The notes under the pieces were generated by a model. It saw only the letters and a program-made list of their open reading frames with translations, ran no database searches and was not told the origin of the DNA. From positions 1,280,001 to 1,344,000 of the forward strand of contig CP000067.1 of assembly GCA_000002445.1 (NCBI GenBank): a stretch of DNA of 64,000 bases, in the 5' to 3' direction. This DNA comes from Trypanosoma brucei (taxonomy: Eukaryota). The translations under genes and the position numbers were made by a program. Position 1 is the first letter of the stretch, and every line of letters begins with the position of its first letter. Below are positions 1-44,688 of the stretch, one piece after another.

Positions 1-230
1 GCAACCTTTTTACTTTCCGCATCCCTCAAAACATCCCCACTCTCCACCATTTCCCTATCAGCGACAATAACAGGCTTCCCATACGCTGCAGAAAGCTCCT
101 CGGGTGAGCTGTTAATGAGGAACGATGTGTATGCCTCGAGGTAGACAACGTCTGCGTCGTGGACCGCCTTGAGTCCGTTGACTGTGATGTCGTTGGCATC
201 ACCAAGTCCCAGACCTATTAGGGTGAACAT
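1..230 (-). CDS. DPH5: Diphthine synthase (Dph5), N-terminal part; the CDS runs off the window at position 1
   Basis: Hand translation of the reverse complement from the ATG at 228-230 gives MFTLIGLGLGDANDITVNGLKAVHDADVVYLEAYTSFLINSSPEELSAAYGKPVIVADREMVESGDVL... This matches the conserved Dph5 N-terminus (LIGLGLG...ITV.GLEA...VYLE.YTS.L......L...YGK..I.ADRE.VE). It is absent from the ORF track because it is truncated by the window edge. Confidence 0.7.
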   Translation of the reverse strand, partial: MFTLIGLGLGDANDITVNGLKAVHDADVVYLEAYTSFLINSSPEELSAAYGKPVIVADREMVESGDVLRDAESKKV

Positions 231-362
231 TGGTGCCTCTTCCTACATACAGGGAGGGGGAACAGTGAAGTATCAATCATTCGGCCAGACCAACGTATTA
301 AATAGCTAGAGCAGGAGGAAACAATTCACAGTGTATTGCCACAAACCGTAATAACATACTCT

Positions 363-968
363 TTAATTGTCCCAATACGTCCGACTTGACAGAAACGGGG
401 CTAACGCGTATATCAGTCCGTGTGTGTAGGATTCGGCACGATTGAGGTGACCGGCTGTGAGAACTCCCATTGCTCCTTGTCCAGATCTCACGTCCTTCTC
501 ACCAGTCATTTCGTCCATTATTTCTGCAAGCTCCTTTCCCTCATTGAGGATCTTCTGCATGAGCTTCTGACTCATTTCAAACCTTCCAGATGACCCTGTC
601 CCCTCGCGTCCACTCGAACGCTCAATGACATGCATCCACCCACATTCAAACCATCTGTCACCGATCTTTTCCAGGCCACCTTCCATTCCTACCCCATAAT
701 GGGCATCAGGTATGTGCCGTAGCGCCTCTCGGGCGCGGTGTTGAGCCCCTTCTTGTGACTCTCCCGCTGACATGGGTTGAGCTCGGACAGCTGAACTCAC
801 CTCAACAGGTCTGATGTCGTGTTGTTGATCAGGAAAACACTTGTTAACAACCAAGGCAACAGAGTTCAATTTTGCTTTGTTCGTTGTCCCTACTGCCCAA
901 ATGATCATTGTGTTACTAACAGCCACAATAACACTAAGAAACGAGTGCTTGATGCTTGCCGAAACCAA
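363..968 (-). CDS. Inosine/xanthosine triphosphatase, YjjX-like (DUF84, Maf/Ham1 superfamily NTPase)
   Basis: The 201 aa ORF has an N-terminal ...VGTTNKAKLNSV... and a C-terminal ...EIMDEMTGEKDVRSGQGAMGVLTAGHLNRAESYTHGLIYALAPF... These align with the YjjX family motifs (TTNPAK..., ...[37 protein letters not shown]). The match is recalled from memory; no search was run. Confidence 0.6.
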   Translation of the reverse strand: MVSASIKHSFLSVIVAVSNTMIIWAVGTTNKAKLNSVALVVNKCFPDQQHDIRPVEVSSAVRAQPMSAGESQEGAQHRAREALRHIPDAHYGVGMEGGLEKIGDRWFECGWMHVIERSSGREGTGSSGRFEMSQKLMQKILNEGKELAEIMDEMTGEKDVRSGQGAMGVLTAGHLNRAESYTHGLIYALAPFLSSRTYWDN

Positions 969-3900
969 GAAGTAGCACCAGCCACAAGGTTAGAAAAGAT
1001 GTGAGCACAAACGAGAATCGGCCGGTATGTCCGGTTGCACAGGATACAAAAAAGAAAAACAGCAAGACACCTCCATGCGCAAGATGCTGCGACAACATAA
1101 CACCCAAAGACGTACGCCTAGATTGGCAAGTGCACAACCAGCAGCGCATTACGTATCGGTTCTCTCTGATCATACGCATATATGTATGTAGAGTTCAGAA
1201 AGAGAGGAAATGATTACCTACTTGGACTTCCTGTGAGCCAAACACCTAAATAAAGATGGTGGACATCCCGCAGAAACTGAAAATGAGGGTTCCAAAAAAA
1301 AAAAAAAAATCAGCCGCCTTGAACGATCATGGACACTGTGCACGGTTGTCAGGCAGCTACGCATGGGTGCATGCGCCCGAATGATTATGCATTACATAAC
1401 ATTTCGGGTGACGTAGCCTCTGGTGCTGAAAAAGTTCCTGTCAAGGTGGTGAGCTTCACAAAGGAAAAGCAATAACACCACCTTACGTTTTGCTTTGCAT
1501 AAGCAAAGTGATCGATGCCCTCTCACCTACGAAATGATCAGCGGTATTAGAATGTATTTTCTATTGTACACAAGGAGATGCGTGCATGTACTCGCAACAG
1601 GTGGTACTGAAGAGCTCTCTCGAACACTGTGCGGGCAGGGGCGTTGGCCCTTTCGGAGCATTACTAAGCAAAAATAAAAATTTCATGTTAACGCTTGCAT
1701 GGAAAAATTGTTGCTTCTCGTCACCTGCTAAAAAGTCACTGACAACCACCTAGAGTTCATGCGCTGGAACTGGCACGTAGTGCCACTTGAAAGCGACATA
1801 ACACCATGGCTAACTAACGACACAACGGATCCTCAGCACCTGCAGAACCTCATTTTTGTCGTCCAATAGCATAAGGCCTAATTCTCGATCATGGCAACTG
1901 TCTATTCATTGAATCAGTAGCGAGAACGTTATGTTGGAGTCGCTTTTGGCGCCATATGCTTGGCGCTCGGAGACGTCATTCCGTACACATAGCGCCAGCA
2001 CTTCAGTATACTAAGAACTTCGGCATCTAAATTCCCCAGCCACCTTACGCGGTACCAACAAGGGAAGCAAGTGATATTATTGATCACCTCATCGTGCAGT
2101 ACTTGCATAAGGGAGAAAACACAGCTGTACCGACGCCTTGCGGAGTTTGTCCAGATAGTATCTGCCTTAGCGTACTTTGCTTTTTCGCCCCCCCCCCCAT
2201 GCGTAAATGTTACTACCGACTGACTGCCAGTAATACTGAGATGTCTAAACGCCAAATACCTTGGCCGCATAACCGGTGATCTCTACTTGCCGATCACCCG
2301 TTAGCAGCGTACAGACATAACCAAATCCTGACACTAGTAATGAGCCGCTCCGCGGGTTGCCAACAGCGCTTGTTTCATGTGTAGTGCCGCAAATTAATGT
2401 GCATATCACACTGTCAGGATTTTGCTGAAACAGGATTTTATGATGCATCACAGCTCTTCTTTCTTTTTAAAAAAAAAACTCAAAAGCCGATGTTTCCTAC
2501 ACATTGCAAGCACGCAAGTTCGCTATGGTTACACCCCATTTCTCTTATTCACACGAAGCGCTGTTAGACACCTAATACGCTGCAACGAGGGTGCCTCAAC
2601 TATTAGCTGAACTCAGAAGGGAGAACACATTCACCGTAGGTTCGTTATGCGGTATAAGAGCCTATGTGATCATAAAAAAAATGAAACGAAGGACAACTGG
2701 CTAGCATGTAAGTTAGGTGCAATAAATAAATAAGTTACTGAATTAGAGACGGTAATGGTGACCATCATTTTATGTGTGGAAAACCAACACGTCGTTGACA
2801 CAGAAGAAACAAAACGTCTAGAATCCTGTATTCCATCTTTACCAAGTAAAGTAATTAAAAAAAGAGACACCAGCTCTCCTCTTTTTTTGTGAGAGATGCG
2901 TTCAAAGGATACGTACCCCTAAATGGGGTTAAGTTAGTAAGGGAATATGTAGTAGTTACAAAGCCATCGAAGACGGTGCACAACAGTTGCTTTCGGTCAA
3001 CAAGGCACTCATATAAAGAAAACACATGTTTCATCGTGCTCTGGAGTTTGCAGCCACAACAGAATCAGTTTGGGAACAGAATACCAATAACTTGGTTGAC
3101 ACACACGCAAAAAATCATTTTGTGGCACAAAACTTAAAAATAAATCAGAGACCCGTTCATAAATACACCCGTGTGCACACACAAGCACATGAGTTCGAAG
3201 TTATTGGGGGAACATGTTGCATTTGGTGGGTGCTGAAATGAGTTGTGGTTCGCCAACAAACCACAGCTTTTACCTCGTCCTGAAATATCTTCAGTCAGCT
3301 AACATTGCACAGCCGTTTTTTTACACGTGATCGTCTTGGGGGGAGGGAGTGCAAAGCACCAAATCTCACCATAATGAGAGGTGGAATAGGAACGCGAGCA
3401 ACAGATCACTCGTAGGAAACACTACGACAGCAATAACGGATCACTCCAGCGCAAAAAAGCGCAGCTGACAGTAAGCAGCACGTACACTCCGGTGACCCCT
3501 CCCCCCCCCCCCCAAGGATGTCCCAGTCTCACTCCACTCTTTTTGGCAGAAGAAACCCGCACCATCCCAACTGCTTCAAAAAAAAGTTCCCTGCGAAATC
3601 CATTTGCGTCACTGTCAGAACCTTAAAATGTGTCTTCTGTTGACATCTCCAACTGCGTGTCCGAGCGTGTAGCTACTTAACAGACTAATCAGGGTACACG
3701 AACCCGCTGCACAGGAAGAAGAGTATACTTTCTCCTATACTCACCTTTGCAACCGGTACATCACTAGCATTTGCTACCTCTATAATTACTCCACATGAAA
3801 CAAAAATAAATATGCACCTAAGATAATCAAAAACTATTCCTTTGGTACCGCCCCCTCCAGGAACTCGTTCGACACCTGCGGCAACCAAATAAAATACTTT

Positions 3901-5045
3901 TCGCCTCCCGCAACTCCAGTTACCTTAACGCGACACCAGGCTAGAGAATCTTGCTGAGACAGTGGAAGCCGTAGGACTGTATACCAGTGCGCTAAGACAG
4001 GATAGTAGTGAAAAGTTCACGCCATCAAGGCACCCTGGAACCAGCAGCTGAATCACTCCCGGACAGATGTCACCGCAAGAAACCTCCAGTACCTGCGGCC
4101 GCACTTTCAACAATATCAGCGTACTCCGACATGTTCCAATGCACCACTCCTACTATTGCCATCTCGAAAGAAGTTTTAAGAGACCCAAGAATCGAGCATC
4201 AAAATCACAGCATAACTCAAGTCAACCAGTAGAGAATCTGGTTTCTGCCCCGGGGCCATGACTGCCGATAGGCTGCCAAAGGTTCAATCACCGCCGTGTC
4301 GTCGCCATCTCCTTCATTGACTGTTCCGAGAAATTGGCCACGACTGTACACGGCAGCTTTTTGCAGGAAATACGTAAACTTGGCATACAAAGCCCATTCG
4401 TCCACTGCATGGCAACGCTCCTGGCTGAACGTGCCCAGCGGCCTCGCTTACAAAGATCAGTCTCCCGACGAGGACACTTCATCTGAGACTAAGCACCAGG
4501 CGCATCAGTCGACCCTTTATTCTTAACAATTGTATTGAACCCCTTCCCCCCTGTGAAGCATGACACAACGCAGGCTCCAACCCCATCATGGTTTCTTCGT
4601 AGGCGACCAAATGATGAGGAACTAAGATGCTGGAGGCTCTGCTGAGGGAAGCAGACACTACGAATATGTCAGGGGCCAGCTGATACTTCGGCCCCCTTGC
4701 CGCACGAAAAGCATGGTCTAAAGTGTTAAGATGACATTTTATGGGTACCGTGGCACTGACACTCGATGATGCCAACATCGAAGCGAGCCCTTCCTCCATT
4801 AGTAAAAATACTGGTGATCTGCAGCCAGTACCGCCTTCTCACAAACACGGATCGAGCGGTGGAGAATAATAACTGACATGGACACACTCTCCATTACGCC
4901 GAGAATATATCAGAGAAAATATGTACATATACGGATGCACAAGCGCAGCATACGGGTATATGATATCACGTGATGATGCAGAACTTTCAAAGGATCAACA
5001 GCGTACACCACACACTATAGAGAGAGATAGTCATGCCCTTCTGAT

Positions 5046-6062
5046 CTTTTCTTTTTTCACCCAATCTATCATTCCACATCATTTCTCCCATTAGAACACG
5101 ATGGTATGGAGTAATAATGTGAGGTGAAGCACAAACATATGATGTGAGAAGGAGAGGTGTGACTGTAGTGTTCCATCCGAAGGAAGAGTTAACAAATAAC
5201 ATATACAGTAGCGACACTTCCCATACTGTGCACATAACACAGCATGGTATATTAGTATGCACAGGGGAAAACTATGTCGATATATAACGCACCTTTAGCC
5301 ACCGTACGGGGTGCAGTATCGTGATTGGGCCGTTCCTGAAAGCTAAAAATCCTATGGCGAACTGGAGCGCTCCGTGCAGGCAAAGTAGCTCCCTAAAAGT
5401 CCTCCGCGCACTGACCAGGTCGGTACGGACAAATTCCGTTGCAGAGGAGCGGAGAACCCCCCAGGAAATGTGGAACCTAGACTTCAAGACCAAGCGTCAC
5501 GACACCTCTATTCCGCCAGAGCCTGTGTTCGGTCGCCTCCGACCAAAGAATGGATCCTAAGACGACGGTGGAAACAACGCAACCCTACGAAGCGAGAGGC
5601 GTAAGAACCACTGACTAGCAAAACGACAATGCAGCGCAACTCCGATGAAGTGAAGCATGCTCCGGTCGGGAACCACCGGAAACTCGCAAACGACGATCTG
5701 GTTAGTCGAAAGGGGTCCAGTGTGCGCGCAGGACTCCGCACAACCGCACCCACCTCCCTTGGATAGCCCGGCGCAGTTCCACTGCATCCCGCGCAACGAC
5801 GGGCCGGGATTCTCTTCCACATCACCGGACAGCAGCATCTTAGTGCGTATGATACTGCTGATGGCACGCTGGCACGTGCCCAGGGACCGACAAATGAAAA
5901 GCGGTGTCCCAGCAAGACACTGCTGATCCCTGTGCCGTATGATGCCGTAGCCGGAGCAAAGCAGTGTTCCCCATGAAAGGAACGCTGTTGGCTCTTGGCT
6001 TCCCCCGATGATACGGGGTACTGGACCCTGGCACCACGTTGAGGTGGCCGGCATCGCCAGGG
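5046..6062 (-). mobile_element. ingi/RIME-type non-LTR retroposon remnant. The 5' end at 6062 is well defined; the 3' limit is unresolved, lying between ~5550 (a RIME-sized ~512 bp element) and the A-rich tract at ~5046-5062
   Basis: The minus-strand sequence starting at 6062 reads CCCTGGCGATGCCGGCCACCTCAACGTGGTGCCAGGGTCCAGTACCCCGTATCATCGGGGGAAGCCAAGAGCC..., the conserved 5' signature of T. brucei RIME/ingi as I recall it. An ATG at element position ~9 opens a 165-codon frame encoding ...LLSGDVEENPGP..., a canonical 2A ribosome-skipping motif known from ingi/L1Tc. Three overlapping minus-strand ORFs in different frames (5508-6124) fit a decayed element. RIME is ~0.5 kb with a ~160-codon ORF, which fits 6062 to ~5550. 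Confidence 0.55.
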
Positions 6063-7301
6063 TCCCTACACGTGAAAAACAGCTGCCAAGGTGGCCTGAC
6101 CGCTGGAAACCAATCTAGCACCAATTGTTGCCCTGAGATAAAAGAGGAGAAGCACTGAGAGCTTGGGAAACGGCCGGAGTGTCGTTGCTAACGTCTTCTC
6201 CCCTCTGCGGTCTCAGAAGTCACTTCACACAGGCCGCGTCTTTTGCAGAAGCGCCGCATCTCCGGGGCGCCACTTTTTGAGCTTCACTGCTGACACGTTA
6301 CGGTTGTTTTTACTACGAACAAAGATGAGGAGAGATTCAGCTACTCAGGAAGCTTCTAGACGCACCAAAGTTTCGGGTTTTGAGCCCACCAGCATAGGCA
6401 AACGTGCCCAAGCTAATGTGGTTGAAATGTCTCTTTACTAAATAGTGTCCATCCGTTCCTGAAGAGTGTGTGCAGACAACGTGCGGTGGAAGGCGAGTCT
6501 CCTAATGAGACCGTGTTGGGGAAAAGGTCAGGAAAGTTCTTCCATACAATTAGTGGAGTCCATGCCGCAGCGGTCACCTTTTTTACAAAAGAAGGATGCG
6601 CTCACTTAAAAGAAAGATACCACTCAAAGGGTTTCAGCGTATGAGAATGGACAAAGTGGTCTATTATAGCTTTTTTTTGTTGAAAGCCTGCATTACGAAT
6701 GGTTTTGGGCTTAGGAATGCAGAGTATTTTTTTGTACGGTTATCTTTGTATAAACACACTGTCCTCCCGTTTATGTACACAGCTGTTTGCAAGAGGGTGA
6801 AAATTTTAGAAAGCTCACCCAACCAAACCCAACCCTCTACGCCCCGCACGGGAGGTGAGTAAACTGCGCTTTCAGACACTTCCATATCGTTAGTAAATTA
6901 TCGTTTCAATTCATATTTGTGTAGGATGATGAGGAACGCTTACTGTTTCTTCAGCATGATAATTATTTCGTATATCTTTCTTGTCCGTAGTAAAAAGGGA
7001 AGGTAAGAACTAAACTATTCTTGGTGGAATGAGGGGGGAATTTAGTTGACATCTTCCCCCGCCACACCGTTACTTTTGCCATCCGAAGGTTCTTAAAACC
7101 TTGTCTCAGCACTCGTCAGCCACGACGTCGTGGCTGCCGCCATGATACGGTTACTTTCGGTGGTTTCATCCACATCGATGTATTTCGTGCACTTTGTAGT
7201 GCAGTCGCACTTTTTCCCCCCTTTAAATTAGGCGAAAACAAAACGCAGCGGTGCTTGTTGACAGTATTTTTTCAAGCCTGTCAGCCAGAAGAAAAGAAAG
7301 A

Positions 7302-7374
7302 CGCGCAGTCCGGGAATCGAACCCGGGGCTCCCGCTAATTGAGTGCGAGTGACTTTCCACTAGACTAACCGCGC
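7302..7374 (-). ncRNA. Aberrant tRNA-like gene with a 9-nt anticodon loop. Candidate trypanosomatid SRP-associated tRNA-like RNA, or a tRNA pseudogene
   Basis: The minus-strand sequence is GCGCGGT-TA-GTCT-AGTGGAA-AGTC-A-CTCGC-ACTCAATTA-GCGGG-AGCC-CCGGG-TTCGATT-CCCGG-ACTGCGC-G. The 7-bp acceptor stem, the T-arm (GGTTCGATTCC B box) and the A-box-like TAGTCTAGTGG are all good. The D-stem has one mismatch, and the anticodon stem CTCGC/GCGGG encloses a 9-nt loop instead of 7. The 3' end is followed by a T4 run (plus 7291-7301 is gaaaagaaaga), consistent with a Pol III terminator. Confidence 0.5.
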
Positions 7375-7443
7375 CACCTGAGCGTTTGGTGTTCAAAATT
7401 TATTGCAACGTGCAGCGTCCGAAGAACGGGAAATATAAAAAGG

Positions 7444-7516
7444 CTACGACGGGCGGGGATCGAACCCGCGATCTCTCGCGTGTGAGGCGAATGTCCTAAC
7501 CACTAGACGACCATCG
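7444..7516 (-). tRNA. tRNA-Val (anticodon CAC), 73 nt, CCA not encoded
   Basis: Manual cloverleaf: GCGATGG-TC-GTCT-AGTGGTTA-GGAC-A-TTCGC-CTCACAC-GCGAG-AGATC-GCGGG-TTCGATC-CCCGC-CCGTCGT-A. All stems pair, with two G-U pairs in the acceptor. U33, A37, T54-T55-C56 and A58 are present, and the discriminator is A73. The anticodon arm TTCGCCTCACACGCGAG is almost identical to metazoan tRNA-Val(CAC). A T5 run lies immediately 3' on the minus strand (plus 7431-7443). Confidence 0.8.
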
Positions 7517-7609
7517 CACGGTAAGCATTCCTCAGGGGTAGCTCATAGAAATGATTGTTGAACCGACCGGATCAAGGAACTTGCGGGTGTTGCGGACGAA
7601 TGGCTGTTA

Positions 7610-7890
7610 AGAGGCAAACCTGTTGGTTTGGAGGACTTTGGGGCGCACCCGGGTGGAGATGTTTCAGATGCGGAAGGGTTGGAAGAGTTGGAAGGGAGAT
7701 GCGAATCCACCACCTTACGCGAAGTGGGAGGCACGAAAAGGAAGCACGGCAACTGTAGCAAAAGCAACGTGAATGCCAGTGGTGTGTTTGCGTTGTTTCC
7801 GCGGCGCTGGAAAGAGTGCAAAGACCGGGAAAATAGAGTTGCGGTTCATATAAAACCGTATGCGTGCAATGCCCGGTGGTGAAGCAGGAT
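7610..7890 (+). ncRNA. Candidate 7SL (SRP) RNA gene, divergently oriented from the upstream tRNA. Boundaries are approximate (+/-15 nt)
   Basis: It contains an SRP-RNA helix-8-like motif, GGAGGCAC-GAAA-AGGAAGCACGGC, at ~7722-7750. This has a GNRA tetraloop and the 3'-side GGAAGCA(G)C signature of SRP RNA domain IV. The putative 5' end is ~97 bp from the tRNA 5' end at 7516, as in trypanosome Pol III small-RNA genes that use a divergent upstream tRNA as promoter. The 5' segment AAACCTG (~7628) can pair with the 3' segment CAGGATTT (~7883-7890). No long T-run terminator is seen (only TTT at 7888-7890), which lowers confidence. Confidence 0.4.
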
Positions 7891-9621
7891 TTAAGCAAAA
7901 AAAAAAAGAGATAAATACGCGGGGGGGGGGAAGTTTACGAGTTCAACATGTGAAAGGTGTTTCGTAGCAGGGGCTTTGATAATGCACATCAACCTCGTGA
8001 GTATGCACGGCCCCGTGGCACCGCTAAAGGGACTACGAGCAGTGGAGGGAAAGTGGGGTTAGCCATAGCCGCGCCGGTGTTGAGACCAAAATAAAAAAAG
8101 GGATGACGTGGAGGTAACAGTTAAGGAAGGAGAGGATAGAGAGAACAGGGTGGGGTTGGAATAAAATGTTCCTAGTAAACTTTTGATGTTCACGGGGCAC
8201 GTGGGACTCCAGAGAGTAAGGAGAGGTGCGCACTTAAGGCACACACAAGAAAAATGCATACTGAATCCGATTGCGCGCTCCGAGGGGTTTCCTGACGCTT
8301 TTATAAGGAAGTGGAAAGTGTGAAGTGAAACCCACCATTGCCCCATACTGCGGCTAAACGTAAGCGAGGCGAGTTGGTCTAAAAGGTTTAGTAGGAAGGA
8401 TACACGGCGATGGAAAGAAGGACGTTTACAACAAATTGAAGTTGGGCATCCAAGGATTGCTGAGCCACTTGCCCGAATGCACTGCCCTGAAGAATCTGAA
8501 GATGAAACATGAACTAATAGGCTTGATGGGGAAAGCGCCTCGCGGGGAGGCAAAATTGGCGGGGTTCCTTTCCGTTTGACTCGGAAAGGGAGGGTACCGG
8601 TGCTCAATGGTTGGGAAATGGCTCCGATCAGTGATGCGGAAGGAAGAGAACAAACAAATCAAGAATAGGGGCGCCCGAAACAAATCCACCACCGGAGACG
8701 TCGGATTGAGGAGTGTGTGTGTGTGTGGGGGGGGAAGGGGAGCAGCGGTGGAAGGACGATCTCTGCAAAGCACGGCGTAGACACAAATTGATTGTAGTTC
8801 ACTAATTCCCTCGTGGTCTGCTTTCGCCCATTCTCCATAGTGATGCATGAGTTCCCGCTGCGACTGTCAATGACGGGCTGCCCATCAACGGGCTGTTTCC
8901 ATTCAAAGAGGCAGGCAGCGCTGCGTGCGATTTCCATTCCCACGTGTTAGAAAAATCCACCGACAGTACAGGGTGACTTTTAGCTTGACTCAGCTCCGCA
9001 ACGCAAAGAGGAAAGGCAGCTTTTTTTTTTTTTTAAAAAAAAGAGATCTTGGGGCTGATCACGCACAAACGCCGATGTAAGAAACGTTGGCTTTTGTCTC
9101 ATTGTTGACTCGTCTTTCATGACACATTGGCCTGGGTCCCAGGCGCGAGGGAAGGAACCGCAACAGTTTAGCGGGGCTCAGTGTGGGTGATGTGGGTGCA
9201 AGCCGACTGAGCTCAGTTAATCGTCCCAATGATAATGCGGTGCAACTTTTTTGCCATAGTGTGTGTGCGTGTGTGTGTGTGCCCGAAAACCCTCCGCTAA
9301 CAACTCAGCTTTAGCGGTGGTTACATACATCGACGCAATTCATGCACCCCCGTTTGTCTCGGGCGTGTGGGTAACCATCGCTTCACCTATGTGGTGTAGA
9401 GAGCTGTGAAATTCAAGGAGAAAAAAACAGCATGTAAAAAGCAAAAACTCTGCTTACGTGTGTTGCTTGTGCTTCATCGGAAGGGGACACTCCGCGTAAG
9501 TTACAATAATTAGGTTAAACGCCCCTCGTACGGCACTCCAACTGCATTAGGTTCCATTTCCCCCTCCCCCCCCCCACACACACCCACTCTCCCCTCTGTG
9601 CGATCCGGGCCAGAAAATTCC

Positions 9622-11160
9622 TCAGCTGAAGGCAGCGGACTTTAGGGTCTGCACTTCAGTTTCTGCTGTCTTTATAATCGTCGGCGCTACCTTTCGGCGG
9701 GCCATCTCCATGCAGAGGGGCCGATGTGACTTGTAATCTTCTCGTTGACATGCCACACCACAATAAGATACGGTGCGGCAAGCGGCGCACTTCAGCACTT
9801 CTTTTACATTTCCCGGGCAACACGGATTGTGGCATTTCGGGGTAACCCCATTTTCATTTGGCGGCGTCTTACTGTGCACCGCAAGGTGATATTGAGGCTC
9901 GCTCAGGAAGGCGAATGTGGTGATGATGTACTCCTTAAGTGTGTGCAGATGCTGTGTCACACTACCTTTCCCGAGGCGTGTGTATATGTTGTCGGCGGTG
10001 GTGAGTGCGCGGTCCAGCACCGGAAGTTGTTCGCTTGCGCAGGCCATATTTTTCACTTCCCGTCGCACCACATGCAATGCGAGGGCGACGCTTGCAACAT
10101 GGGATGGAAGATCAGTATGCAGGTTTATTGACCCCGTCATGATCGCCTTCACGTGGCGGAATGCGTCGAACAGTGCTACTCTCGCTGCAAAAAGGGACCC
10201 ATTTTGAACCCTACGCACCGGCTTGTCGAGGAAAGGATTGCGGTAATCCAGTCGCTGGAGCAAATCCTCCACCAACTTACATGCAAACGCATCATCCTCC
10301 TTTACTGCCATCATAAGCAAACAGTCAATGACTTTCATTTTCTCAATGTCCTTTATAAACAACGTGTACGTGCTACGGAACTTCACGTAACATGGACAAC
10401 GGTCACAACAGACATATGTCCCAGTTCCATTCGCATTGGCACCCTGGAACATGCTATACACACCAACGCACGGGCTAAAGCAAAAGAACAGCGCCCTTAG
10501 CGAATCCATCAACGCACCAAAGATCTCCAAGTTGTCGAGCGAGGTCCTCAAACCATTTATTAAGCTGAGGGTGGTTTTCATAGCCTCTTCTGCATTGGAG
10601 GTGCTAAATTTGGTTGGAGTATTTCTGGGTTCCCCAATATCCAGTATGAATTCCTTAATGTTTCCGAGGGCTTCTACCTTCGAATTCACGTCCCATTGCG
10701 GGTACTTGGAAACAAGCCGGATAGCCTCAAAAACACGACGGGCGATGTCACAGAATGAATCCATACCCTTGGGAAACCGCGGCCATTCTTCCTCATCCTT
10801 CGCCGCCGTCGCGTTGTAGAACTCATAGCAAGCCTCTCCCAAAAAAGGGTCCTTATGGAGTACGGCGAATGCCATGAAGTCATTAAGCAGGCGAAGTGCC
10901 GCAGGGAAGCGGTCCTCTGGTTGAAAACAGGCTCCAATGTAATCCACCAACCATCCGAGGTCGATGGATTGAAAGGGATATCGGAGTACGGTTGCATTGT
11001 TCATTGTGCTTTCCACCGCTTGTGCATTTGCCAAACGGGTCTCATTACTGGGCGTGGATGGGGAAGTTGTCATGGTCGGTTTGACTAACAGGCGCGCATT
11101 ATTTTCAAGAACGAGCGCAAGGGGAGAAAAGCAACGGGAGATGGATGAGGGACTCGTCAT
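9622..11160 (-). CDS. MYND-type zinc finger protein
   Basis: The 512 aa ORF has a C-terminal CHNPCCPGNVKEVLKCAACRTVSYCGVACQREDYKSHRPLC. This matches the MYND C-x2-C...C-x2-C...C-x3-C...H-x3-C arrangement. The rest is helical with no other recognised domain. Confidence 0.7.
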   Translation of the reverse strand: MTSPSSISRCFSPLALVLENNARLLVKPTMTTSPSTPSNETRLANAQAVESTMNNATVLRYPFQSIDLGWLVDYIGACFQPEDRFPAALRLLNDFMAFAVLHKDPFLGEACYEFYNATAAKDEEEWPRFPKGMDSFCDIARRVFEAIRLVSKYPQWDVNSKVEALGNIKEFILDIGEPRNTPTKFSTSNAEEAMKTTLSLINGLRTSLDNLEIFGALMDSLRALFFCFSPCVGVYSMFQGANANGTGTYVCCDRCPCYVKFRSTYTLFIKDIEKMKVIDCLLMMAVKEDDAFACKLVEDLLQRLDYRNPFLDKPVRRVQNGSLFAARVALFDAFRHVKAIMTGSINLHTDLPSHVASVALALHVVRREVKNMACASEQLPVLDRALTTADNIYTRLGKGSVTQHLHTLKEYIITTFAFLSEPQYHLAVHSKTPPNENGVTPKCHNPCCPGNVKEVLKCAACRTVSYCGVACQREDYKSHRPLCMEMARRKVAPTIIKTAETEVQTLKSAAFS

Positions 11161-11352
11161 GAAGTGGAAGCGAAGGGGGGATTACAGGTTTCCAACAAGA
11201 TCAGTTGTTGCAGTTACCTGAATGTAGTTCCACGGTGCCAACAACGGAAGGAAAAAAGAAAAAAGAAAAAAAGAAAAGAATAATATATGGTACACCCCCC
11301 AAATCAGTGGGGCCACGCGATATAGTTGGTTGTCACTTGCCTCCGTTACGAT

Positions 11353-12012
11353 CTAGAAGGCGCTACGGTACCATTGTCGTTCCTCCTCCATTCCACGAAT
11401 TAACGCGTCCAGAAGGTCCCGCTCACTTTCACAGAGCTTCTCTCGCACATCACTCAAGTCAAACCCCTTCTTCGCAGCTGCACGGATGATTTTAAGATAT
11501 CGCAACTGATAGAGTCTAAAGAGTTGCCCCGCTAGTCGGTTGCCATCGCCCGTGGGGAGCATTGCACACAGCAGAAGCCCTGCTTCATAATAGTAAGGTG
11601 ATTTAGCATGAAGACTCACAGCAAGTGGGTCAGTTTTAAATTCGCGAAATACCGATGTGGTGTAACGTGACGGAACCTGGGGCACTATATGACCTACTTG
11701 GCGAAAAGCCACTGCTGCCCACAGGGGAAGAGTTGCGGTACTTCCGACTTGCACCTCGTCATGAGTCTCGCCCTCAGCGGTACGGGGGTTAACGTCTTTG
11801 CCAAGCCCAAACAAGGGTGTGGTGAAGGTGACTGGGATTAACTCCTCATTGGATAAAATGCTAGAGAGATCAAAATAATTCTTGATCATTCTACCGTTTT
11901 CTATTTGATAAGTGAAGACAAAATAATGGGTCCCATGGAAGGGGAAATGACACAGTGTATATCCGCACACAATTATCTTTGGTACTAAATGAAAGGTCAT
12001 GCGGCTTCCCAT
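11353..12012 (-). CDS. PSF2: GINS complex subunit Psf2 (DNA replication). The true start is probably the internal Met at 11889
   Basis: ...TATLPLWAAVAFRQVGHIVP...AKSPYYYEAGLLLCAML... matches the Psf2 hallmarks (EVPLWLAINLKQRQKC... and SPYYMELTKLLL). The first 41 codons of the 219 aa ORF (MGSRMTFHLVPKIIVCGYTLCHFPFHG...) lack homology, and MIKNYFDLSSILSNEELIPV aligns with the Psf2 N-terminus. Confidence 0.6.
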   Translation of the reverse strand: MGSRMTFHLVPKIIVCGYTLCHFPFHGTHYFVFTYQIENGRMIKNYFDLSSILSNEELIPVTFTTPLFGLGKDVNPRTAEGETHDEVQVGSTATLPLWAAVAFRQVGHIVPQVPSRYTTSVFREFKTDPLAVSLHAKSPYYYEAGLLLCAMLPTGDGNRLAGQLFRLYQLRYLKIIRAAAKKGFDLSDVREKLCESERDLLDALIRGMEEERQWYRSAF

Positions 12013-12328
12013 TCGGAAGGATTAAAAAGTGAGTGAATCATCTGATACATGCAGTCTCCCTGTGCGCTTCTACAAGCAAGAGGGCAGGAAAATAAGATAA
12101 AATAAAATACCACCGTAATGATGATGAGGCTTGGTATTAGAGGTATAAGATCCTTTCTCCATATAGAGCAATGAAAAAAAAAAGATCTAATCTTCCTGCC
12201 TTCGTGCCAGCACCAAAAAACACCAAGAACACTTAACAACACCAACGACAAAAAAAAAAAGTACATACAGGTGATTTACATTTACGTATACAAGCCGAAC
12301 CCGTTAGGGGAATTTTGTTTCCTCTTTC

Positions 12329-13165
12329 TTAGGGATGGATAATCGGCGGAAAGTCTTCGTGCGCCCTCAGGGAGCGAAGCTGCATGAATTGCTCTTGACG
12401 GTCAACAATGCCCCGCAAAATGTCAATGTTTGTTTGGTTAAGAGGTCTGTTTACAATACCACGAACCTCACGCAGGAGTTCCTTCAGCTGTCCCTCTGAA
12501 GCGGCCATCGCTTGCTTTCGTTTCTTTTCGTTTTCGTAGTCCACCTTATAGTCATTCTCTGCGCCACGCTTCTTGATATCTTCGAGCTCGTCCACATCCA
12601 TTTCAATTCTGCGCCGTTCTCCGTGTTCGCGCAGGATGAGCTCCTCGAGTTTCGCTAACTTTTGCGTGGTTACGCTGCTCACGTCACTGTCCTTGTCTTG
12701 AGAACGTATGGGTTTCTTGAAAGCCATATTGCCAAATGTATCGCATAGACCGGAAGCAGCGCAATTCTTCGCAAGCACTTTGTGTGGACCAGGGAGCCAA
12801 CCATATGTCTCACCGGCGTGCACACAACACGTGGTACCAGGACGCTTTTTGGTGCATCCGAATGGAAAATGGTTTGCAGTTGAACGAAGCTGCTCCCGCT
12901 TGTTCCTCCAGCTCCCCGGATGTGCTGCGGAGCGGGGGATGCAAGGACAACCACCCGTCGCGTTGTAATAATTATTGGTTCTTGGTTGCGCGAGAACCTT
13001 ATAATTGGGTAACCCGAGTGGATGGCCGTAGCAATCGCAATGGTGGTACTTTTTATCGTGTTGTGCCGCCGCTGCAGTGGGCAGGCGCGATGGCCGTTGG
13101 GGAGTTTCTGTGGAGGGCTTTTCAGTGGCTGGTTTATGGGGGTTTAACACCGCCCCTCCAATCAT
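12329..13165 (-). CDS. Hypothetical protein with a Cys-rich N-terminal region and a coiled-coil C-terminus; paralog of 13878-14687
   Basis: The 278 aa ORF shares motifs with the neighbouring gene: YHHCDCYGHPLGLPNYKVLAQPRT...CPCIP... versus YHVCECYGHTQQLPNYKKLTNPRT...CPCIP... It has a charged, heptad-like C-terminal half (KLAKLEELILREHGERRRIEMDVDELEDIKKR...). Confidence 0.5.
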   Translation of the reverse strand: MIGGAVLNPHKPATEKPSTETPQRPSRLPTAAAAQHDKKYHHCDCYGHPLGLPNYKVLAQPRTNNYYNATGGCPCIPRSAAHPGSWRNKREQLRSTANHFPFGCTKKRPGTTCCVHAGETYGWLPGPHKVLAKNCAASGLCDTFGNMAFKKPIRSQDKDSDVSSVTTQKLAKLEELILREHGERRRIEMDVDELEDIKKRGAENDYKVDYENEKKRKQAMAASEGQLKELLREVRGIVNRPLNQTNIDILRGIVDRQEQFMQLRSLRAHEDFPPIIHP

Positions 13166-13877
13166 GTTTTTTTTGTTATCTGGCTTGTTTTTATTCCTTC
13201 CTTCCGTATCGGTCTACCAACTGCGTCGGCCTTATATTTATTCTTTCTAGAGTCTACTGTTATTTGCGTTCGACCGTATCATTTAGAACGAAAAAAAAGA
13301 AAAGGAAGGGACCAACAGAATGAAAAAGAAATACCAAAAGCATACACAGTGGCTTCAAAAGCTCACGGGACACCGCCACAACTATCCAACAAACAACGGA
13401 AACTAACGACATCGTCACTTTGCCCGGCGCCGGAAGGGAAGGGGAGAAGCAATGGACTAAGGTGTGAATCCTCCTAAACTCATTACGCTGAACTCGTCAA
13501 CTACCTCTCCATTTTTCACATAAATACATACAATCTCCACCTCCGCGCTGGAAACATCACGGAGGAAGAGAATAATACTTGAAGTTTACATTTTTCTTTC
13601 TTTCCGCAGCATAACGGAGCCTAGGATAAAAGCAACGTGCGACAAAGCACCAGGACTCGGATCGCACGCTAGCAACTCCTCCTCCCTGGCGAAAAATCTA
13701 AGAATAATTTGTACAAAAGTATTGGGGGCCAAAATGCGGGAGGTAAGATGGTGTACGTCTTCTTATGTGTACAAAAAAATAATGGAGGAAATATCGCTTC
13801 CCAAGAATCCGCATTTGTTAATTGAAATCCCCCATCAATTCACGCATCTTCTTTCTTTTTGTTACTTTCCTCACCCG

Positions 13878-14687
13878 TCATACCCGCCCGGATGTCTTCT
13901 GTGATCCGAAGCTACGAGCAAAATTCCGCATTCTCTCTTGCTCTTCCAGTGTGTAATACATACGAATGATGTTGAGCTTAGAACCGACTGGCTGCCGCGT
14001 GACAAAGCGCAGCTCATCCATCACAGCATCGTATTGCTCCCCTACCGTCTTGGGTTCTTCATGATCTTCACTCAGCTGTGCTTCCCTGGCCGCAGCTGCA
14101 GCTTCTGCAAGTAGTCGTGCGTGGCGGCTTCCGCGAAGCCCGGTTTCATTTTCCAACTCTTCCAACTGCTTCTCAGCCTCCGCGCGATGGCAAATCTCAT
14201 CACGAAGCACAGCCTTTAGGAACTCCTTGCGGTCGTACATTTGCTCGTATTTTCGCTCACCTGGCGTCAGACGCCTCGGTTGGCCAATGGCAGGAAAAGT
14301 ATGTTTGGCCACCGTGCCGCCGTAGTTGCAGGCGTTGGGGAAGACGAGGCGGGCTCTCGTTACGGGATCCCGAAGTGTCGCTCCATCTCCAGGCACGCTG
14401 GCTGCCTTATGCACTCTGTGCTTGCCAGGTTCGAAGTCACGGTAAGTTTCCTCAGGAAATGCCACATTGCGTTTTGCAGGGTTTTCGCTGCAGTATGTGG
14501 TGTTGAAATTCTTCTCCCTCTTGTTGGGGATGCACGGGCAGGCGCTCACCTTCTGCTTTGCGTAGAAGCCCTGCAGCGTGCGCGGGTTGGTCAGTTTCTT
14601 ATAGTTGGGCAATTGCTGTGTGTGTCCGTAGCACTCGCACACGTGATACTTGTCTGAGTGAGTGACATTGTTGCTCGTCTGAGCCAT
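13878..14687 (-). CDS. Hypothetical protein with a Cys-rich N-terminal region and a coiled-coil C-terminus; paralog of 12329-13165
   Basis: The 269 aa ORF has the same CxCYGH...LPNYK.L..PRT...CPCIP architecture and a C-terminal coiled-coil-like segment (EAEKQLEELENETGLRGSRHARLLAEAAAAAREAQLSEDHEE...). Confidence 0.5.
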   Translation of the reverse strand: MAQTSNNVTHSDKYHVCECYGHTQQLPNYKKLTNPRTLQGFYAKQKVSACPCIPNKREKNFNTTYCSENPAKRNVAFPEETYRDFEPGKHRVHKAASVPGDGATLRDPVTRARLVFPNACNYGGTVAKHTFPAIGQPRRLTPGERKYEQMYDRKEFLKAVLRDEICHRAEAEKQLEELENETGLRGSRHARLLAEAAAAAREAQLSEDHEEPKTVGEQYDAVMDELRFVTRQPVGSKLNIIRMYYTLEEQERMRNFARSFGSQKTSGRV

Positions 14688-15039
14688 CCTTGATTTCTTG
14701 CCTCCTTTGCTTGAAGACTATCACCTGCTCAATTCCTTCCCTTTCCCTTTCTCTTTTTCTGTGTTTAGTTCCGATTTTGTATTCCTGAGTTTTTTCACTC
14801 TTTCCCTTTAACAAAAAGGAGGATCTGATGCCCAACAGGTTGGCAGAGTGATTAGAAGAAAGAAGGGAAGGTCAAAAAATAAATAAAAAAAAGAAAATCA
14901 CGTTTCGGTGAAGTGACATCTGCTGAGGAAAGCAAGTAGTTCCCGGCCGAACGGGAACAATGCGTTGGCCACGTTCCACCACCAGTCTTCAGGTTACATA
15001 CACCACTTTCAACAAATATTAAACGAACGAAAGCGCCAC

Positions 15040-43209: not shown

Positions 43210-44688
43210 TTACCAGCCCACAGCCACTCCGTATATAGTGGCTCCAGTGCCAAATACAGACAAGGCAACACCAGCAAATAAAACTGCGTATGTTGCAATG
43301 TAGTGTAGCCACCCAACGGTACTCAGGGACCAGTTACCACCATACATCATGAATAAGGAGGGAAGGATGAATGCAAGAAATCCACCACACACAGAGCCAA
43401 CGAAACCAAGTACTGTATTAATGTTCGGAATAAATAGGCCACAAAGCAGCATAATTATGGAAATGGTTCCAATAATAGTGCAATGCTTAAAAAATGAAAG
43501 CTTCTCCGTATCCAAGCCGATAATGCCGCACAACCCATTTCGGCATGTCATTGCAAGAAGAGCGTAAGATGCGAATAGTTTTACGAGCAGGCCAACAAAT
43601 CCCACCAAAATTGCCGGCTCCTTCACGGGGTCATACATCAATAACACGGAGCCTGCCACATCACGCCCAAAGTCAAGGTAACCGAAGAATGCTGTCATGA
43701 CACACAGGACAAGACATATACCCATGGCAATAGCAGAGTATGCAGTAAACCTGTGCGCACTGGGCTTTGCCATTCCGAAATATATTTCAAAAACAGAGAT
43801 ATGACACAAAAATGCAAACGTAAAGACACCTGGGCCTTCCACTGCCCGGTTGCTGGTGCCGAAGAGGTGAATGCCCTCATCACCTGGCGCTCCAGTAACA
43901 TGTACGTTCTTAATGTTTTCCGGCAGCCCGTTCATACATGAATGCACCACAATAACTACCATAAGGTAAAATACGAAGAAAACAGAAATCGTCGAGACAT
44001 ACCTCAAGGAATTCACCTCTCGTGGAATGGTGAGTGGTAGCATAAAACATAGCCACATGATGAAAGTCAGAAGGCGATTACCCCACTTCTCCTTAAGGAA
44101 GTTTGGCGCATCTGTACCCTTAAGTATTGTGCTAACAATATCGCCTGTCGCTATTATCTGCGCTACGGCTGCCCCAAATGCCTCAACAACACGTAATACC
44201 CCTATAAAGTACAAACAAGGCTGCCCAAGCAGCGCACGCGCCATACCCTCGTAGGATCTGAATCCATGCCGCTCCATTTGTGCACCAAGACAATATAATG
44301 AGTATACGCATAGGAAATATATGATGATAGGGTACACAAATGCCATGACCAGTCCAGTGCTGTTGGCGGCCGCGGGCAACCCGAGGATACCAGCTCCGAT
44401 ACATATGGAGGCAAGGCTGAAGGCGGTCGAAACTAGCCCGCCCGGAGGGATCATTGAAGTGAAACACTTCATGGATGACTGTTCCCCTTCTCCCTCATTA
44501 GCGGGAAGAGCATTCTTGCCCTTAAGCCCTTCATCATCTCCACTTATCACTTCGCAGGAGCCGAAAGGAGATGTGACATCTGCCTTGTTTATCTGTTCCC
44601 TGTCTGTTGTGGGGACCACTGCGGACGCCATCCAACAATAATGATAACAGAGTGTTTGCCTTGCTTGCGCACTTACGTGCATACGCAA
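43210..44688 (-). CDS. Amino acid transporter, type A (492 aa), array copy 2
   Basis: Near-identical to copy 1 (e.g. ISGDDEG versus ISGEDEG, ERHGF versus ERHRF). Confidence 0.85.
   Translation of the reverse strand: MRMHVSAQARQTLCYHYCWMASAVVPTTDREQINKADVTSPFGSCEVISGDDEGLKGKNALPANEGEGEQSSMKCFTSMIPPGGLVSTAFSLASICIGAGILGLPAAANSTGLVMAFVYPIIIYFLCVYSLYCLGAQMERHGFRSYEGMARALLGQPCLYFIGVLRVVEAFGAAVAQIIATGDIVSTILKGTDAPNFLKEKWGNRLLTFIMWLCFMLPLTIPREVNSLRYVSTISVFFVFYLMVVIVVHSCMNGLPENIKNVHVTGAPGDEGIHLFGTSNRAVEGPGVFTFAFLCHISVFEIYFGMAKPSAHRFTAYSAIAMGICLVLCVMTAFFGYLDFGRDVAGSVLLMYDPVKEPAILVGFVGLLVKLFASYALLAMTCRNGLCGIIGLDTEKLSFFKHCTIIGTISIIMLLCGLFIPNINTVLGFVGSVCGGFLAFILPSLFMMYGGNWSLSTVGWLHYIATYAVLFAGVALSVFGTGATIYGVAVGW

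What the first reader, a model, noticed from the sequence alone, without database searches (positions are those of the whole stretch)
5046..6124. Retroposon remnant with an ingi/RIME 5' signature and an in-frame 2A (DVEENPGP) motif
The minus strand from 6062 begins CCCTGGCGATGCCGGCCACCTCAACGTGGTGCCAGGGTCCAGTAC..., which I recognise as the RIME/ingi 5' end. Its first ORF encodes LLSGDVEENPGP, the 2A self-cleaving signature described for ingi/L1Tc. The body is broken into three overlapping frames, so it is degenerate. The 3' end is unresolved: an A-rich tract lies at ~5046-5062, but no clean target-site duplication could be identified. It sits ~1.2 kb from the Pol III island, and the retroposon and small-RNA genes lie in the same gene-free gap.
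Basis: partly seen in the sequence, partly recalled or inferred. Interest (0 to 1): 0.55.

Follow-up and report, generated by a model that had tools for sequence, protein, structure and literature searches.

The report
Truncated ingi retroposon 5' stump
This is the first ~305 bases of an ingi mobile element of Trypanosoma brucei, cut off at its 3' side and left as a dead stump between genes; it is an ordinary relic already listed in a published catalogue.

Summary
The minus strand from 6062 to about 5757 is the 5' end (nt 1 to ~301-305) of a Tbingi non-LTR retroposon. It is 94-97% identical to full-length ingi and RIME copies from T. brucei subspecies. It keeps the 79-nt Pr77 hallmark and the in-frame 2A motif MLLSGDVEENPGP.

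- Homology to ingi stops at 5757-5762, about 11 codons into the endonuclease domain.
- Nothing from 5756 to 5046 resembles ingi, RIME or a DIRE at DNA or protein level.
- The "A-rich tract" (5046-5062) lies inside an unrelated ~440-bp dispersed repeat (4865-5297).
- The piece runs past the RIME A/B junction and lacks the RIME 3' half, so it is not a RIME.
- It is truncated, not degenerate: 6 of 300 positions differ from the ingi consensus.
- There is no poly(A) and no target-site duplication. The ingi target-motif test is inconclusive.

The window is T. brucei TREU927 chromosome 4, 1,280,001-1,344,000. Khan et al. 2015 already list this element (1,285,762-1,286,062, ingi nt 1-301, 5' end ok, 3' truncated), among many similar stumps. 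It is shared with T. b. gambiense and T. b. equiperdum. It is most likely inert; residual Pr77 activity is possible but untested.

The parts
5984..6062 (-). 79-nt 5' signature (Pr77 hallmark) of the ingi clade. It includes CCACC at +16..+20 and the DPE motif CGTG at +25..+28.
   Evidence: 78 of 79 positions match the majority consensus of seven T. brucei ingi/RIME copies; the one difference is at nt 75. The DPE and CCACC positions are those described for Pr77 in PMC4748587 and were read directly from the sequence.
5757..6062 (-). ingi-derived segment, Tbingi nt 1 to ~301-305. This is the whole recognisable element.
   Evidence: blastn gives 94.2-97.4% identity to ingi copies in L002, L004, L005, L006, L007 and L008, and 97.2% over nt 1-247 to the RIME in L003. 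No other ingi similarity exists anywhere in the 64-kb window by blastn or tblastx. It is listed as NC_007277 1285762-1286062, element nt 1-301, 5' ok / 3' tr, in PMC4660242 Suppl. File 1.
5557..6054 (-). Chimeric 165-aa ORF. About 97 codons are ingi-derived (leader, 2A, and the first ~11 codons of the AP-endonuclease domain, MQWNCAGLS). The remaining ~68 codons come from unrelated sequence.
   Evidence: Only the orthologous T. b. equiperdum ORF (P0001, 95%) covers it fully; all other hits stop at ~61% coverage. No Pfam domain. pN/pS is 0.44 against the ortholog, not significant (p=0.11).
5800..5823 (-). 2A core motif DVEENPGP (D78-P85 of the ORF). The predicted ribosome-skipping site lies between G84 and P85.
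   Evidence: Translation. The peptide MLLSGDVEENPGPSLRGMQWNCAGLS is identical in ingi ORFs P0002, P0003, P0004, P0008, P0019 and P0020. In P0020 the Exo_endo_phos domain starts right after it. The 2A consensus DxExNPGP in L1Tc and African-trypanosome LINEs is described in PMC5814959.
5755..5762 (-). 3' breakpoint zone where ingi homology ends (ingi ...GGGCTATCTCAAGGAAAGAG versus window ...GGGCTATC-CAAGGGAGGTG).
   Evidence: Alignment A1; blastn end points 5757-5762. The same junction occurs in the T. b. equiperdum and T. b. gambiense orthologues.
5298..5756 (.). G+C-rich sequence unique in the DNA sampled. It is not ingi-derived and is included only because the finding counted it as element body.
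   Evidence: No blastn (word 7) or tblastx hit to ingi or to ~150 kb of other T. brucei and related loci. No protein homologue in any frame. No Pfam hit. GC is 0.53-0.58.
4865..5297 (.). It is not part of the ingi remnant.
   Evidence: 93.7% identity over 441 bp to T. b. gambiense FN554965.1 (L006 5737-6177), with no flanking similarity.

Best explanation
The feature is a 3'-truncated stump of a Tbingi non-LTR retroposon (ingi4 subclade) of Trypanosoma brucei. Only ingi nt 1 to ~301-305 survive, at window 6062..5757 on the minus strand (TREU927 chr 4, 1,285,757-1,286,062).

What it keeps: the Pr77 / 79-nt hallmark, the ingi start codon, the 2A ribosome-skipping peptide, and about 11 codons of the endonuclease domain.

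What it lacks: the rest of the endonuclease, the reverse transcriptase, RNase H, the zinc finger, the 3' end, the poly(A) tail and any target-site duplication. It therefore cannot move or encode anything useful.

Age and origin: the insertion predates the split of the T. brucei subspecies. Its sequence is still close to the ingi consensus, so it was shortened rather than slowly degraded. The shortening happened either by a later deletion or already at insertion, through internal priming or capture of a partial cDNA. Which of these applies is inferred, not resolved.

Function: most likely an inert relic in an 8.7-kb gene-free gap that also holds two tRNA genes. [quoted passage not shown] Here it points in the same direction as all flanking genes. 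That residual activity is inference only.
For: Identity of the piece:
- blastn and tblastx to seven independent ingi/RIME copies fetched from T. b. equiperdum and T. b. gambiense show homology only for ingi nt 1-~305.
- The 2A and the start of the endonuclease are identical to annotated ingi ORFs. The Exo_endo_phos domain begins right after the 2A in the controls but is absent here.
- It runs past the RIME junction.
- The downstream 5756-5046 has no retroelement similarity.

Locus and conservation:
- The same element and junction are present at the orthologous locus in T. b. equiperdum (98.35% over 16 kb) and T. b. gambiense.
- The copy differs from the ingi 5' consensus at 6 of 300 positions.
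- The ORF shows no significant constraint.
- A published catalogue lists exactly this element as ingi nt 1-301, 5' intact and 3' truncated. Its 100-nt upstream sequence is identical to window 6162..6063.

How common such pieces are:
- The same table holds dozens of other 5'-intact, 3'-truncated pieces.
- Three of the eight 5' ends I sampled are also truncated.

Pr77 properties come from PMC1874656, PMC4035085, PMC4748587 and PMC8190864.
Against: - No TSD and no poly(A), so insertion by the canonical mechanism cannot be shown at this site.
- The upstream flank matches the ingi4 endonuclease target motif at only 4 of 10 positions. That is background level, although about 20% of genuine elements score as low.
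- The origin of the G+C-rich 5298-5756 stretch is unknown. I could not BLAST it against a whole T. brucei genome, so a rare composite repeat is not strictly excluded.
- No expression or chromatin data were available to show that the piece is inactive.
Confidence: 0.9

Rival explanations
1. One reading: a ~1-kb degenerate ingi/RIME-type retroposon running from 6062 to an A-rich 3' end at ~5046, with a frameshifted body.
For: The 5' signature and 2A are real. An A-rich run exists at 5046-5062.
Against: - ingi homology stops at ~5757.
- No DNA or translated similarity of 5756-5046 to full-length ingi.
- No protein or Pfam hit in any frame.
- The A-run sits in the middle of an independent 440-bp repeat that occurs elsewhere without ingi next to it.
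- No TSD after it.
Confidence: 0.03
2. It is a RIME: the 500-bp non-autonomous element made of the first ~250 and last ~250 bp of ingi.
For: 97% identity to a RIME over nt 1-247. The published table labels such pieces "RIME A".
Against: - The RIME control diverges after GGTGATGTGGA, inside the 2A codons. The window continues with ingi-only sequence for ~55 more bases: the full 2A plus MQWNCAGLS.
- The ingi/RIME 3' half (nt ~5015-5262) is absent from the whole window.
Confidence: 0.02
3. Origin variant. The stump was never a full-length insertion. A partial ingi cDNA (RNA 5' end to about nt 305) was captured at a chromosome break, or reverse transcription was primed internally by microhomology. 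This resembles endonuclease-independent LINE-1 insertions in mammals, which lack a TSD and poly(A) and are 3'-truncated.
For: - Exact ingi nt 1 at the 5' boundary but no TSD, no poly(A), and a 4/10 match to the endonuclease target motif.
- Two other short stumps (L007 nt 1-420; L006 nt 1-~220) end exactly at their 12-13-nt TSD, with 7-nt microhomology to ingi (TGGCTAC; ATGCTGC). This is consistent with internal priming or microhomology-mediated joining in this family.
- A possible CAAGG overlap at the window's 3' junction.
- The L1 comparison rests on my own knowledge (Morrish et al. 2002), not on a tool result.
Against: - With 58 catalogue elements as controls, about 20% of ordinary ingi/RIME also score 4/10 or less on the target motif, so the low score is not diagnostic.
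- About half of L1Tc/NARTc elements lack a TSD anyway (PMC5814959).
- A simple later deletion that removed ingi nt ~306 to the end together with the 3' TSD explains the same structure.
- No empty site was available. T. vivax and T. cruzi do not align here.
Confidence: 0.25
4. Functional variant. The orphan Pr77 module has been co-opted as a promoter and/or ribozyme that restarts or processes RNA polymerase II transcription downstream of the tRNA genes, towards the next genes on the minus strand.
For: - Pr77 is nearly intact (78 of 79; DPE and CCACC present).
- It has the same orientation as all genes in the window.
- It lies 1.2 kb downstream of two tRNA genes in an unusually long 8.7-kb gap that is also a synteny break relative to T. 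cruzi.
- It is retained in three Trypanozoon genomes.
Against: - The first 79 nt are not better conserved than the rest of the stump: 1 change in each of two lineages versus 5-6 changes in the remaining 221 nt, in line with neutral expectation.
- The whole gap diverges at 2-5% between strains, like neutral DNA.
- Retention across very closely related subspecies is expected by descent alone.
- Many such stumps exist genome-wide.
- Pr77 promoter activity has been shown experimentally for T. cruzi L1Tc, not for this copy.
Confidence: 0.07
5. It is the founder or a member of an undescribed composite non-autonomous element: ingi nt 1-305 joined to a novel 3' body.
For: SIDER, NARTc and RIME show that the ingi clade spawns short elements sharing only the 5' end (PMC3820030). 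The body 5298-5756 has unknown origin.
Against: - No second copy of 5298-5756 in the window or in ~150 kb of other T. brucei-group loci.
- No annotated ORF elsewhere matches it.
- No poly(A) or TSD.
- Bringaud et al. 2007 found 29 orphan signatures followed by unique sequence in T. brucei (PMC2323293).
Confidence: 0.03

Closest known systems
Tbingi (autonomous ingi retroposon of T. brucei, ingi4 subclade, ~5.25 kb)
   Same: nt 1-~305 are 94-97% identical. It has the same Pr77 / 79-nt signature, the same start codon at nt 9, the same 2A peptide, and the same first ~11 codons of the AP endonuclease.
   Different: About 95% of the element is missing: the rest of the endonuclease, RT, RNase H, the zinc finger, the 3' region and the poly(A). 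There is no TSD, and the target-site motif match is weak.
TbRIME (500-bp non-autonomous partner of ingi)
   Same: It shares the first ~247 nt (97% identity).
   Different: The window copy continues into ingi-specific sequence past the RIME A/B junction. It has no RIME B half, no poly(A) and no TSD.
Other 5'-intact, 3'-truncated ingi pieces, and the "orphan 79-bp signatures" of T. brucei (Khan et al. 2015 table; Bringaud et al. 2007)
   Same: Same class of object: an ingi 5' end of a few hundred bases followed by unrelated sequence. This very copy is a row of the 2015 table.
   Different: Two sampled relatives (nt 1-420 on chr 10; nt 1-~220, multicopy) are bounded by a 12-13-nt TSD at the truncation point. 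This one is not.
TbSIDER1/TbSIDER2 and DIRE (extinct degenerate ingi-clade elements)
   Same: They carry the same 5' hallmark.
   Different: SIDERs share only the ~79-nt signature with ingi and are 8-18% diverged from their consensus. Here identity to ingi runs to nt ~305 at ~98% of the consensus. DIREs are ~5-kb elements with recognisable endonuclease and RT remnants, and none is detectable here.
Endonuclease-independent LINE-1 insertions of mammals (own knowledge: Morrish et al. 2002)
   Same: 3'-truncated, no poly(A), no TSD, atypical target sequence.
   Different: This is only an analogy for one possible origin. Nothing here demonstrates that mechanism.

Membership tests
Tbingi (ingi-clade non-LTR retroposon) | Conserved 76-79-nt 5' signature (Pr77 hallmark) at the very 5' end | tested here: met
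   6062..5984 matches the consensus of seven T. brucei ingi/RIME copies at 78 of 79 positions. CGTG is at +25..+28 and CCACC at +16..+20.
Tbingi (ingi-clade non-LTR retroposon) | Nucleotide homology to ingi beyond the signature | tested here: met
   nt 1-~305 at 94-97% identity, E 1e-134 to 1e-147. Homology ends there.
Tbingi (ingi-clade non-LTR retroposon) | [quoted passage not shown] | tested here: not met
   Only ~11 endonuclease codons remain. There are no Pfam hits in any frame, while the controls P0020 and P0004 hit Exo_endo_phos. tblastx against full ingi finds nothing else in the window.
Tbingi (ingi-clade non-LTR retroposon) | 3' end with poly(A) tail | tested here: not met
   No ingi 3' sequence in the window. 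The only A-rich run (5046-5062) is internal to another repeat.
Tbingi (ingi-clade non-LTR retroposon) | 12-bp target-site duplication | tested here: not met
   No 12-mer with 2 or fewer mismatches within 6.5 kb downstream. The best match near the junction has 5 mismatches, and 84% of random 12-mers do as well. The method recovers TSDs in the controls L003, L007 and L006a.
Tbingi (ingi-clade non-LTR retroposon) | ingi4 endonuclease target motif AxxxxxxxTxxxGTxGGxTxxx^xTxTxxTxxxxx upstream (PMC3820030) | tested here: inconclusive
   The score is 4/10. 27% of random window positions score 4 or more. 58 catalogued TREU927 elements average ~5.9, with ~20% scoring 4 or less.
TbRIME | ingi 5' ~250 bp fused directly to ingi 3' ~250 bp, then poly(A) and TSD | tested here: not met
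   The window continues with ingi sequence past the RIME junction. The 3' half is absent. The control RIME L003 shows both halves and a perfect TSD.
TbSIDER1 / TbSIDER2 | ~570-bp element that shares only the 5' signature with ingi, has a family-specific body and an A-rich end, and is 8-18% diverged | tested here: not met
   Identity to ingi extends to nt ~305 with 2% divergence. The SIDER consensus bodies were not available, so 5756-5298 could not be compared with them directly. The family features are from PMC2323293 and PMC3820030.
DIRE | Long (~5 kb) degenerate element with recognisable endonuclease and RT remnants | tested here: not met
   tblastx of the whole window against ingi, and Pfam and protein searches of the downstream frames, found nothing.
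2A / 2A-like ribosome-skipping peptides | C-terminal motif D(V/I)ExNPGP in frame within an ORF | tested here: met
   DVEENPGP at residues 78-85 of ORF 6054..5557(-). Its context is identical to ingi ORFs. The consensus is from PMC5814959.
2A / 2A-like ribosome-skipping peptides | Demonstrated co-translational separation at NPG|P | not testable with these tools
   This needs an in vitro translation or reporter assay. It has been shown for L1Tc2A in the literature, not for this copy.
Pr77 promoter / HDV-like ribozyme (L1TcRz type) | Promoter activity and self-cleavage just upstream of nt 1 | not testable with these tools
   Only sequence conservation could be checked. No Rfam family matches. The minimum-free-energy fold is not unusual (z = -0.77).

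The most novel reading that the evidence does not exclude
The near-intact orphan Pr77 module is oriented like the surrounding gene cluster. It sits 1.2 kb downstream of two tRNA genes, in a long gap that is a synteny breakpoint. It could be a domesticated RNA polymerase II restart promoter and/or HDV-like cleavage site for the downstream polycistron.
Probability: 0.06. Interest if true: 0.5.

Novelty: already known. Interest (0 to 1): 0.08.

Why it matters
It matters little on its own. It is one of many truncated ingi 5' stumps in the T. brucei genome, and this exact copy is already in a published table.

Its modest value is for annotation:
- The element boundary is 5757-6062, not 5046-6124.
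- The 165-aa ORF annotated in T. b. equiperdum as a hypothetical protein is a chimeric artefact of an ingi leader and 2A fused to non-coding DNA.
- The neighbouring 440-bp repeat is a separate entity.

Orphan Pr77 copies would become interesting only if they proved to drive or process transcription inside polycistronic units.

Tried and rejected
- Looked for further ingi, RIME or DIRE sequence in 4600-5800 and in the whole window with blastn (word 7-9) and tblastx against two full-length 5.26-kb ingi copies. Nothing lies beyond 5757.
- Searched all reading frames of 5072-5763, as a concatenated query, against 5.8 billion proteins. No hit. Pfam found none either.
- TSD searches with several stringencies. 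None found.
- Target-motif test. Eight controls all scored 6 or more, which suggested a non-canonical flank. A larger control set of 58 catalogue elements showed ~20% of genuine elements score 4 or less, so I withdrew that inference.
- Tested whether the stump diverges faster than its surroundings, as a sign of gene conversion. It does not; the whole gap diverges at 2-5%.
- Looked for an empty site or alignable gap in T. vivax and T. cruzi. Only the coding regions align, and the T. congolense contig is too short.
- The apparent tandem duplication of the stump in T. b. gambiense is an assembly artefact flanking a 204-N gap.
- Rfam at permissive thresholds across the gap returned only the two tRNAs, with no snRNA, 7SL or ribozyme family.
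- An RNA fold of the 79-nt signature is not more stable than shuffles.
- Bringaud 2004 and 2009 and Heras 2006 are not held in the library.
Full report
**Observation**

It occurs once in the window. An ATG at 6054 opens a 165-codon ORF (6054..5557) that contains ...AISSIIRTKMLLSGDVEENPGPSLRGMQWNCAGLS... The DVEENPGP core occupies 5823..5800. So the quoted sequence and the motif are both present.

**Is it ingi?**

A protein search with the ORF returned T. brucei-group proteins. Several are named Tbingi or BES15S03c, and all share the first ~100 residues including the 2A. I fetched the DNA encoding these proteins. This gave two full-length 5.26-kb ingi copies (L002, L004), further ingi copies (L005, L006, L007, L008) and one complete 500-bp RIME (L003).

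- Window 6062..5757 aligns to ingi nt 1-~305 at 94-97% identity, E 1e-134 to 1e-147.
- It aligns to the RIME at 97% over nt 1-247.
- In the control ORF P0020, the Pfam Exo_endo_phos domain starts immediately after the 2A.
- The DxExNPGP match is therefore the genuine ingi 2A and not a chance hit.
- The first 79 nt differ from the consensus of seven copies at one position (nt 75). They keep the CGTG downstream promoter element at +25..+28 and CCACC at +16..+20, as described for Pr77.

**Where it ends**

The RIME control diverges after GGTGATGTGGA, inside the 2A codons. The window continues with ingi-specific sequence for ~55 more bases, so the piece derives from ingi, not RIME.

Homology to ingi then stops at 5762-5757 (ingi GGGCTATCTCAAGGAAAG versus window GGGCTATC-CAAGGGAGG). 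That is about 11 codons into the endonuclease domain.

Downstream of 5757 I found no retroelement signal:
- no blastn (word 7-9) or tblastx similarity to full-length ingi;
- no Pfam domain;
- no homologue for any reading frame among 5.8 billion proteins;
- no ingi 3' half anywhere in the 64-kb window.

**The "A-rich 3' end"**

Window 4865-5297 is 93.7% identical over 441 bp to a stretch of T. b. gambiense FN554965.1 (L006 5737-6177). The similarity has sharp edges and there is no ingi next to that copy. The A-rich run at 5046-5062 lies in the middle of this independent dispersed repeat, so it cannot be the tail of the ingi piece. Between the stump and this repeat lies 5298-5756. This stretch is G+C-rich (0.53-0.58) and unique in everything I could sample.

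**Truncated, not degenerate**

- The ingi reading frame is uninterrupted through the whole ingi-derived part.
- The other-frame ORF 5840..6124 follows a frame that is also open in another ingi copy: the N-terminus of P0019 reads in it.
- The copy differs from the ingi 5' consensus at 6 of 300 positions. The T. b. equiperdum orthologue differs at 7 of 300 and the T. b. gambiense orthologue at 0 of 300.
- Published median divergence is 4% for active RIMEs and 11-16% for TbSIDERs, so this copy is not old by that measure.

**Locus and organism**

- Window 1-16041 is collinear with T. b. equiperdum chr 4 at 98.35%. It is also collinear with T. b. gambiense DAL972 chr 4. Both carry the same stump with the same junction.
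- An apparent duplication in DAL972 flanks a 204-N assembly gap and is an artefact.
- Two flanking proteins are identical in TREU927, DAL972 and T. equiperdum.
- Khan et al. 2015 (PMC4660242, Suppl. File 1) list an INGI/RIME element at NC_007277 (TREU927 chr 4) 1,285,762-1,286,062, minus strand, element nt 1-301, 5' end "ok", 3' end "tr".
- Its 100-nt upstream sequence is identical to window 6162..6063.
- The window is therefore TREU927 chr 4 1,280,001-1,344,000, and this element is already catalogued.
- The same table lists many other 5'-intact, 3'-truncated pieces: nt 1-184, 1-197, 1-206, 1-211, 1-220, 1-294, 1-320/321, 1-326, 1-341, 1-420, 1-450 and others. Three of my eight sampled 5' ends are also truncated.
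- Bringaud et al. 2007 reported 29 orphan 79-bp signatures followed by unique sequence in T. brucei.

**Context**

- All ORFs of 200 aa or more that are not nested inside a longer ORF lie on the minus strand.
- The stump lies in an ~8.7-kb gene-free gap, roughly 970-9620, between an NTPase (PF01931) gene and a zf-MYND gene.
- It is 1.2 kb downstream of two minus-strand tRNA genes at 7445-7517 and 7302-7374.
- No other Rfam family is detectable in the gap, even at E up to 1.
- In T. cruzi the upstream neighbour of the NTPase gene is a thiolase, so the gap coincides with a synteny break.

**Origin**

There is no TSD. The best 12-mer near the junction has 5 mismatches, and 84% of random 12-mers do as well. 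The same script recovers a perfect TSD for the control RIME.

Two other short stumps behave differently. L007 (nt 1-420) and L006 2043-2270 (nt 1-~220) end exactly at a copy of their 12-13-nt TSD. Each shows 7-nt microhomology between the TSD and ingi (TGGCTAC; ATGCTGC). This pattern is expected from internal priming or from microhomology-mediated deletion.

The published ingi4 target motif matches the window's upstream flank at 4 of 10 positions, which is background level. Eight controls all scored 6 or more, which at first suggested a non-canonical insertion. With 58 catalogue elements as controls, about 20% of ordinary elements also score 4 or less, so this test is inconclusive.

Three origins remain open:
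- a later deletion that removed ingi nt ~306 to the end together with the 3' TSD;
- internally primed insertion;
- capture of a partial cDNA at a break.

No empty site could be obtained. T. vivax and T. cruzi align only in coding sequence, and the T. congolense contig is too short.

**Function**

The chimeric ORF shows 8 non-synonymous and 6 synonymous differences from its T. b. equiperdum orthologue (pN/pS 0.44, p = 0.11). Constraint is therefore not significant. The whole gap diverges at 2-5% between strains, and the stump does not stand out. The Pr77 part is not better conserved than the rest of the stump.

I conclude it is most likely an inert relic. The only plausible residual activity is that of Pr77. 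In L1Tc this is an RNA polymerase II promoter and an HDV-like ribozyme, and the sequence is conserved across the clade. Here it points in the direction of the downstream genes. I could not test this.

**Verdict**

The object is an ordinary, already catalogued, 3'-truncated Tbingi stump. Interest is low.

Noticed in passing
window 4865-5297 (second copy: L006 5737-6177, T. b. gambiense FN554965.1): A ~440-bp A+T-rich dispersed repeat, 93.7% identical between two unlinked loci, with sharp edges. It has no similarity to ingi/RIME, no protein or Rfam hit, and no obvious terminal repeats or TSD. Its identity is unknown.
   Followed up: partly
L007 10133-10566 (T. b. gambiense FN554973.1) and L006 2043-2273: Two other 3'-truncated ingi stumps (nt 1-420 and nt 1-~220) end exactly at a copy of their 12-13-nt target-site duplication. 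Each has 7-nt microhomology between the TSD and ingi (TGGCTAC; ATGCTGC). This suggests internally primed reverse transcription or microhomology-mediated deletion as a recurrent way of making such stumps.
   Followed up: partly
L010 17116-18155 (T. b. gambiense DAL972 chr 4, FN554967.1): The orthologous stump appears twice, flanking a run of 204 N. This is an unmerged contig overlap, not a real duplication. The copy is identical to the ingi 5' consensus (0 of 300 differences, versus 6-7 in the other two strains). That could reflect gene conversion or reads from other copies entering the assembly.
   Followed up: partly
window 7302-7374 (-): The second tRNA call (ARAGORN "Leu-CAA", Rfam 40 bits) is only 73 nt, with no long variable arm. 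It has a 9-nt anticodon loop (ACUCAAUUA) in the Rfam alignment. The isotype is doubtful, and it may be a tRNA-like gene or a pseudogene.
   Followed up: partly
window ~970-9620; L013/L014 (T. cruzi): The 8.7-kb gene-free gap holding the tRNAs and the ingi stump coincides with a synteny break. In T. cruzi the NTPase gene is preceded by a thiolase gene, and in L013 DGF-1 genes lie further upstream. In T. brucei it is preceded by the gap and a zf-MYND gene.
   Followed up: partly
window 5250-6300 and 7500-8700: The G+C-rich block (0.53-0.60) extends ~500 bp downstream and ~240 bp upstream of the ingi piece, so it is not explained by ingi alone. Separately, 7500-8700 has a strong positive GC skew (+0.2 to +0.37) on the plus strand.
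   Followed up: no
window 39221-50582 (-): A tandem array of three repeats, each holding two amino-acid transporter genes (PF01490; 492 aa and 462-463 aa).
   Followed up: partly
L005 9304-9992 / 9993-15247 (T. b. equiperdum CM010679.1): An inverted ingi 3' fragment (nt 4575-5258) abuts the 5' end of a full-length ingi, head to head, at the same base.
   Followed up: no
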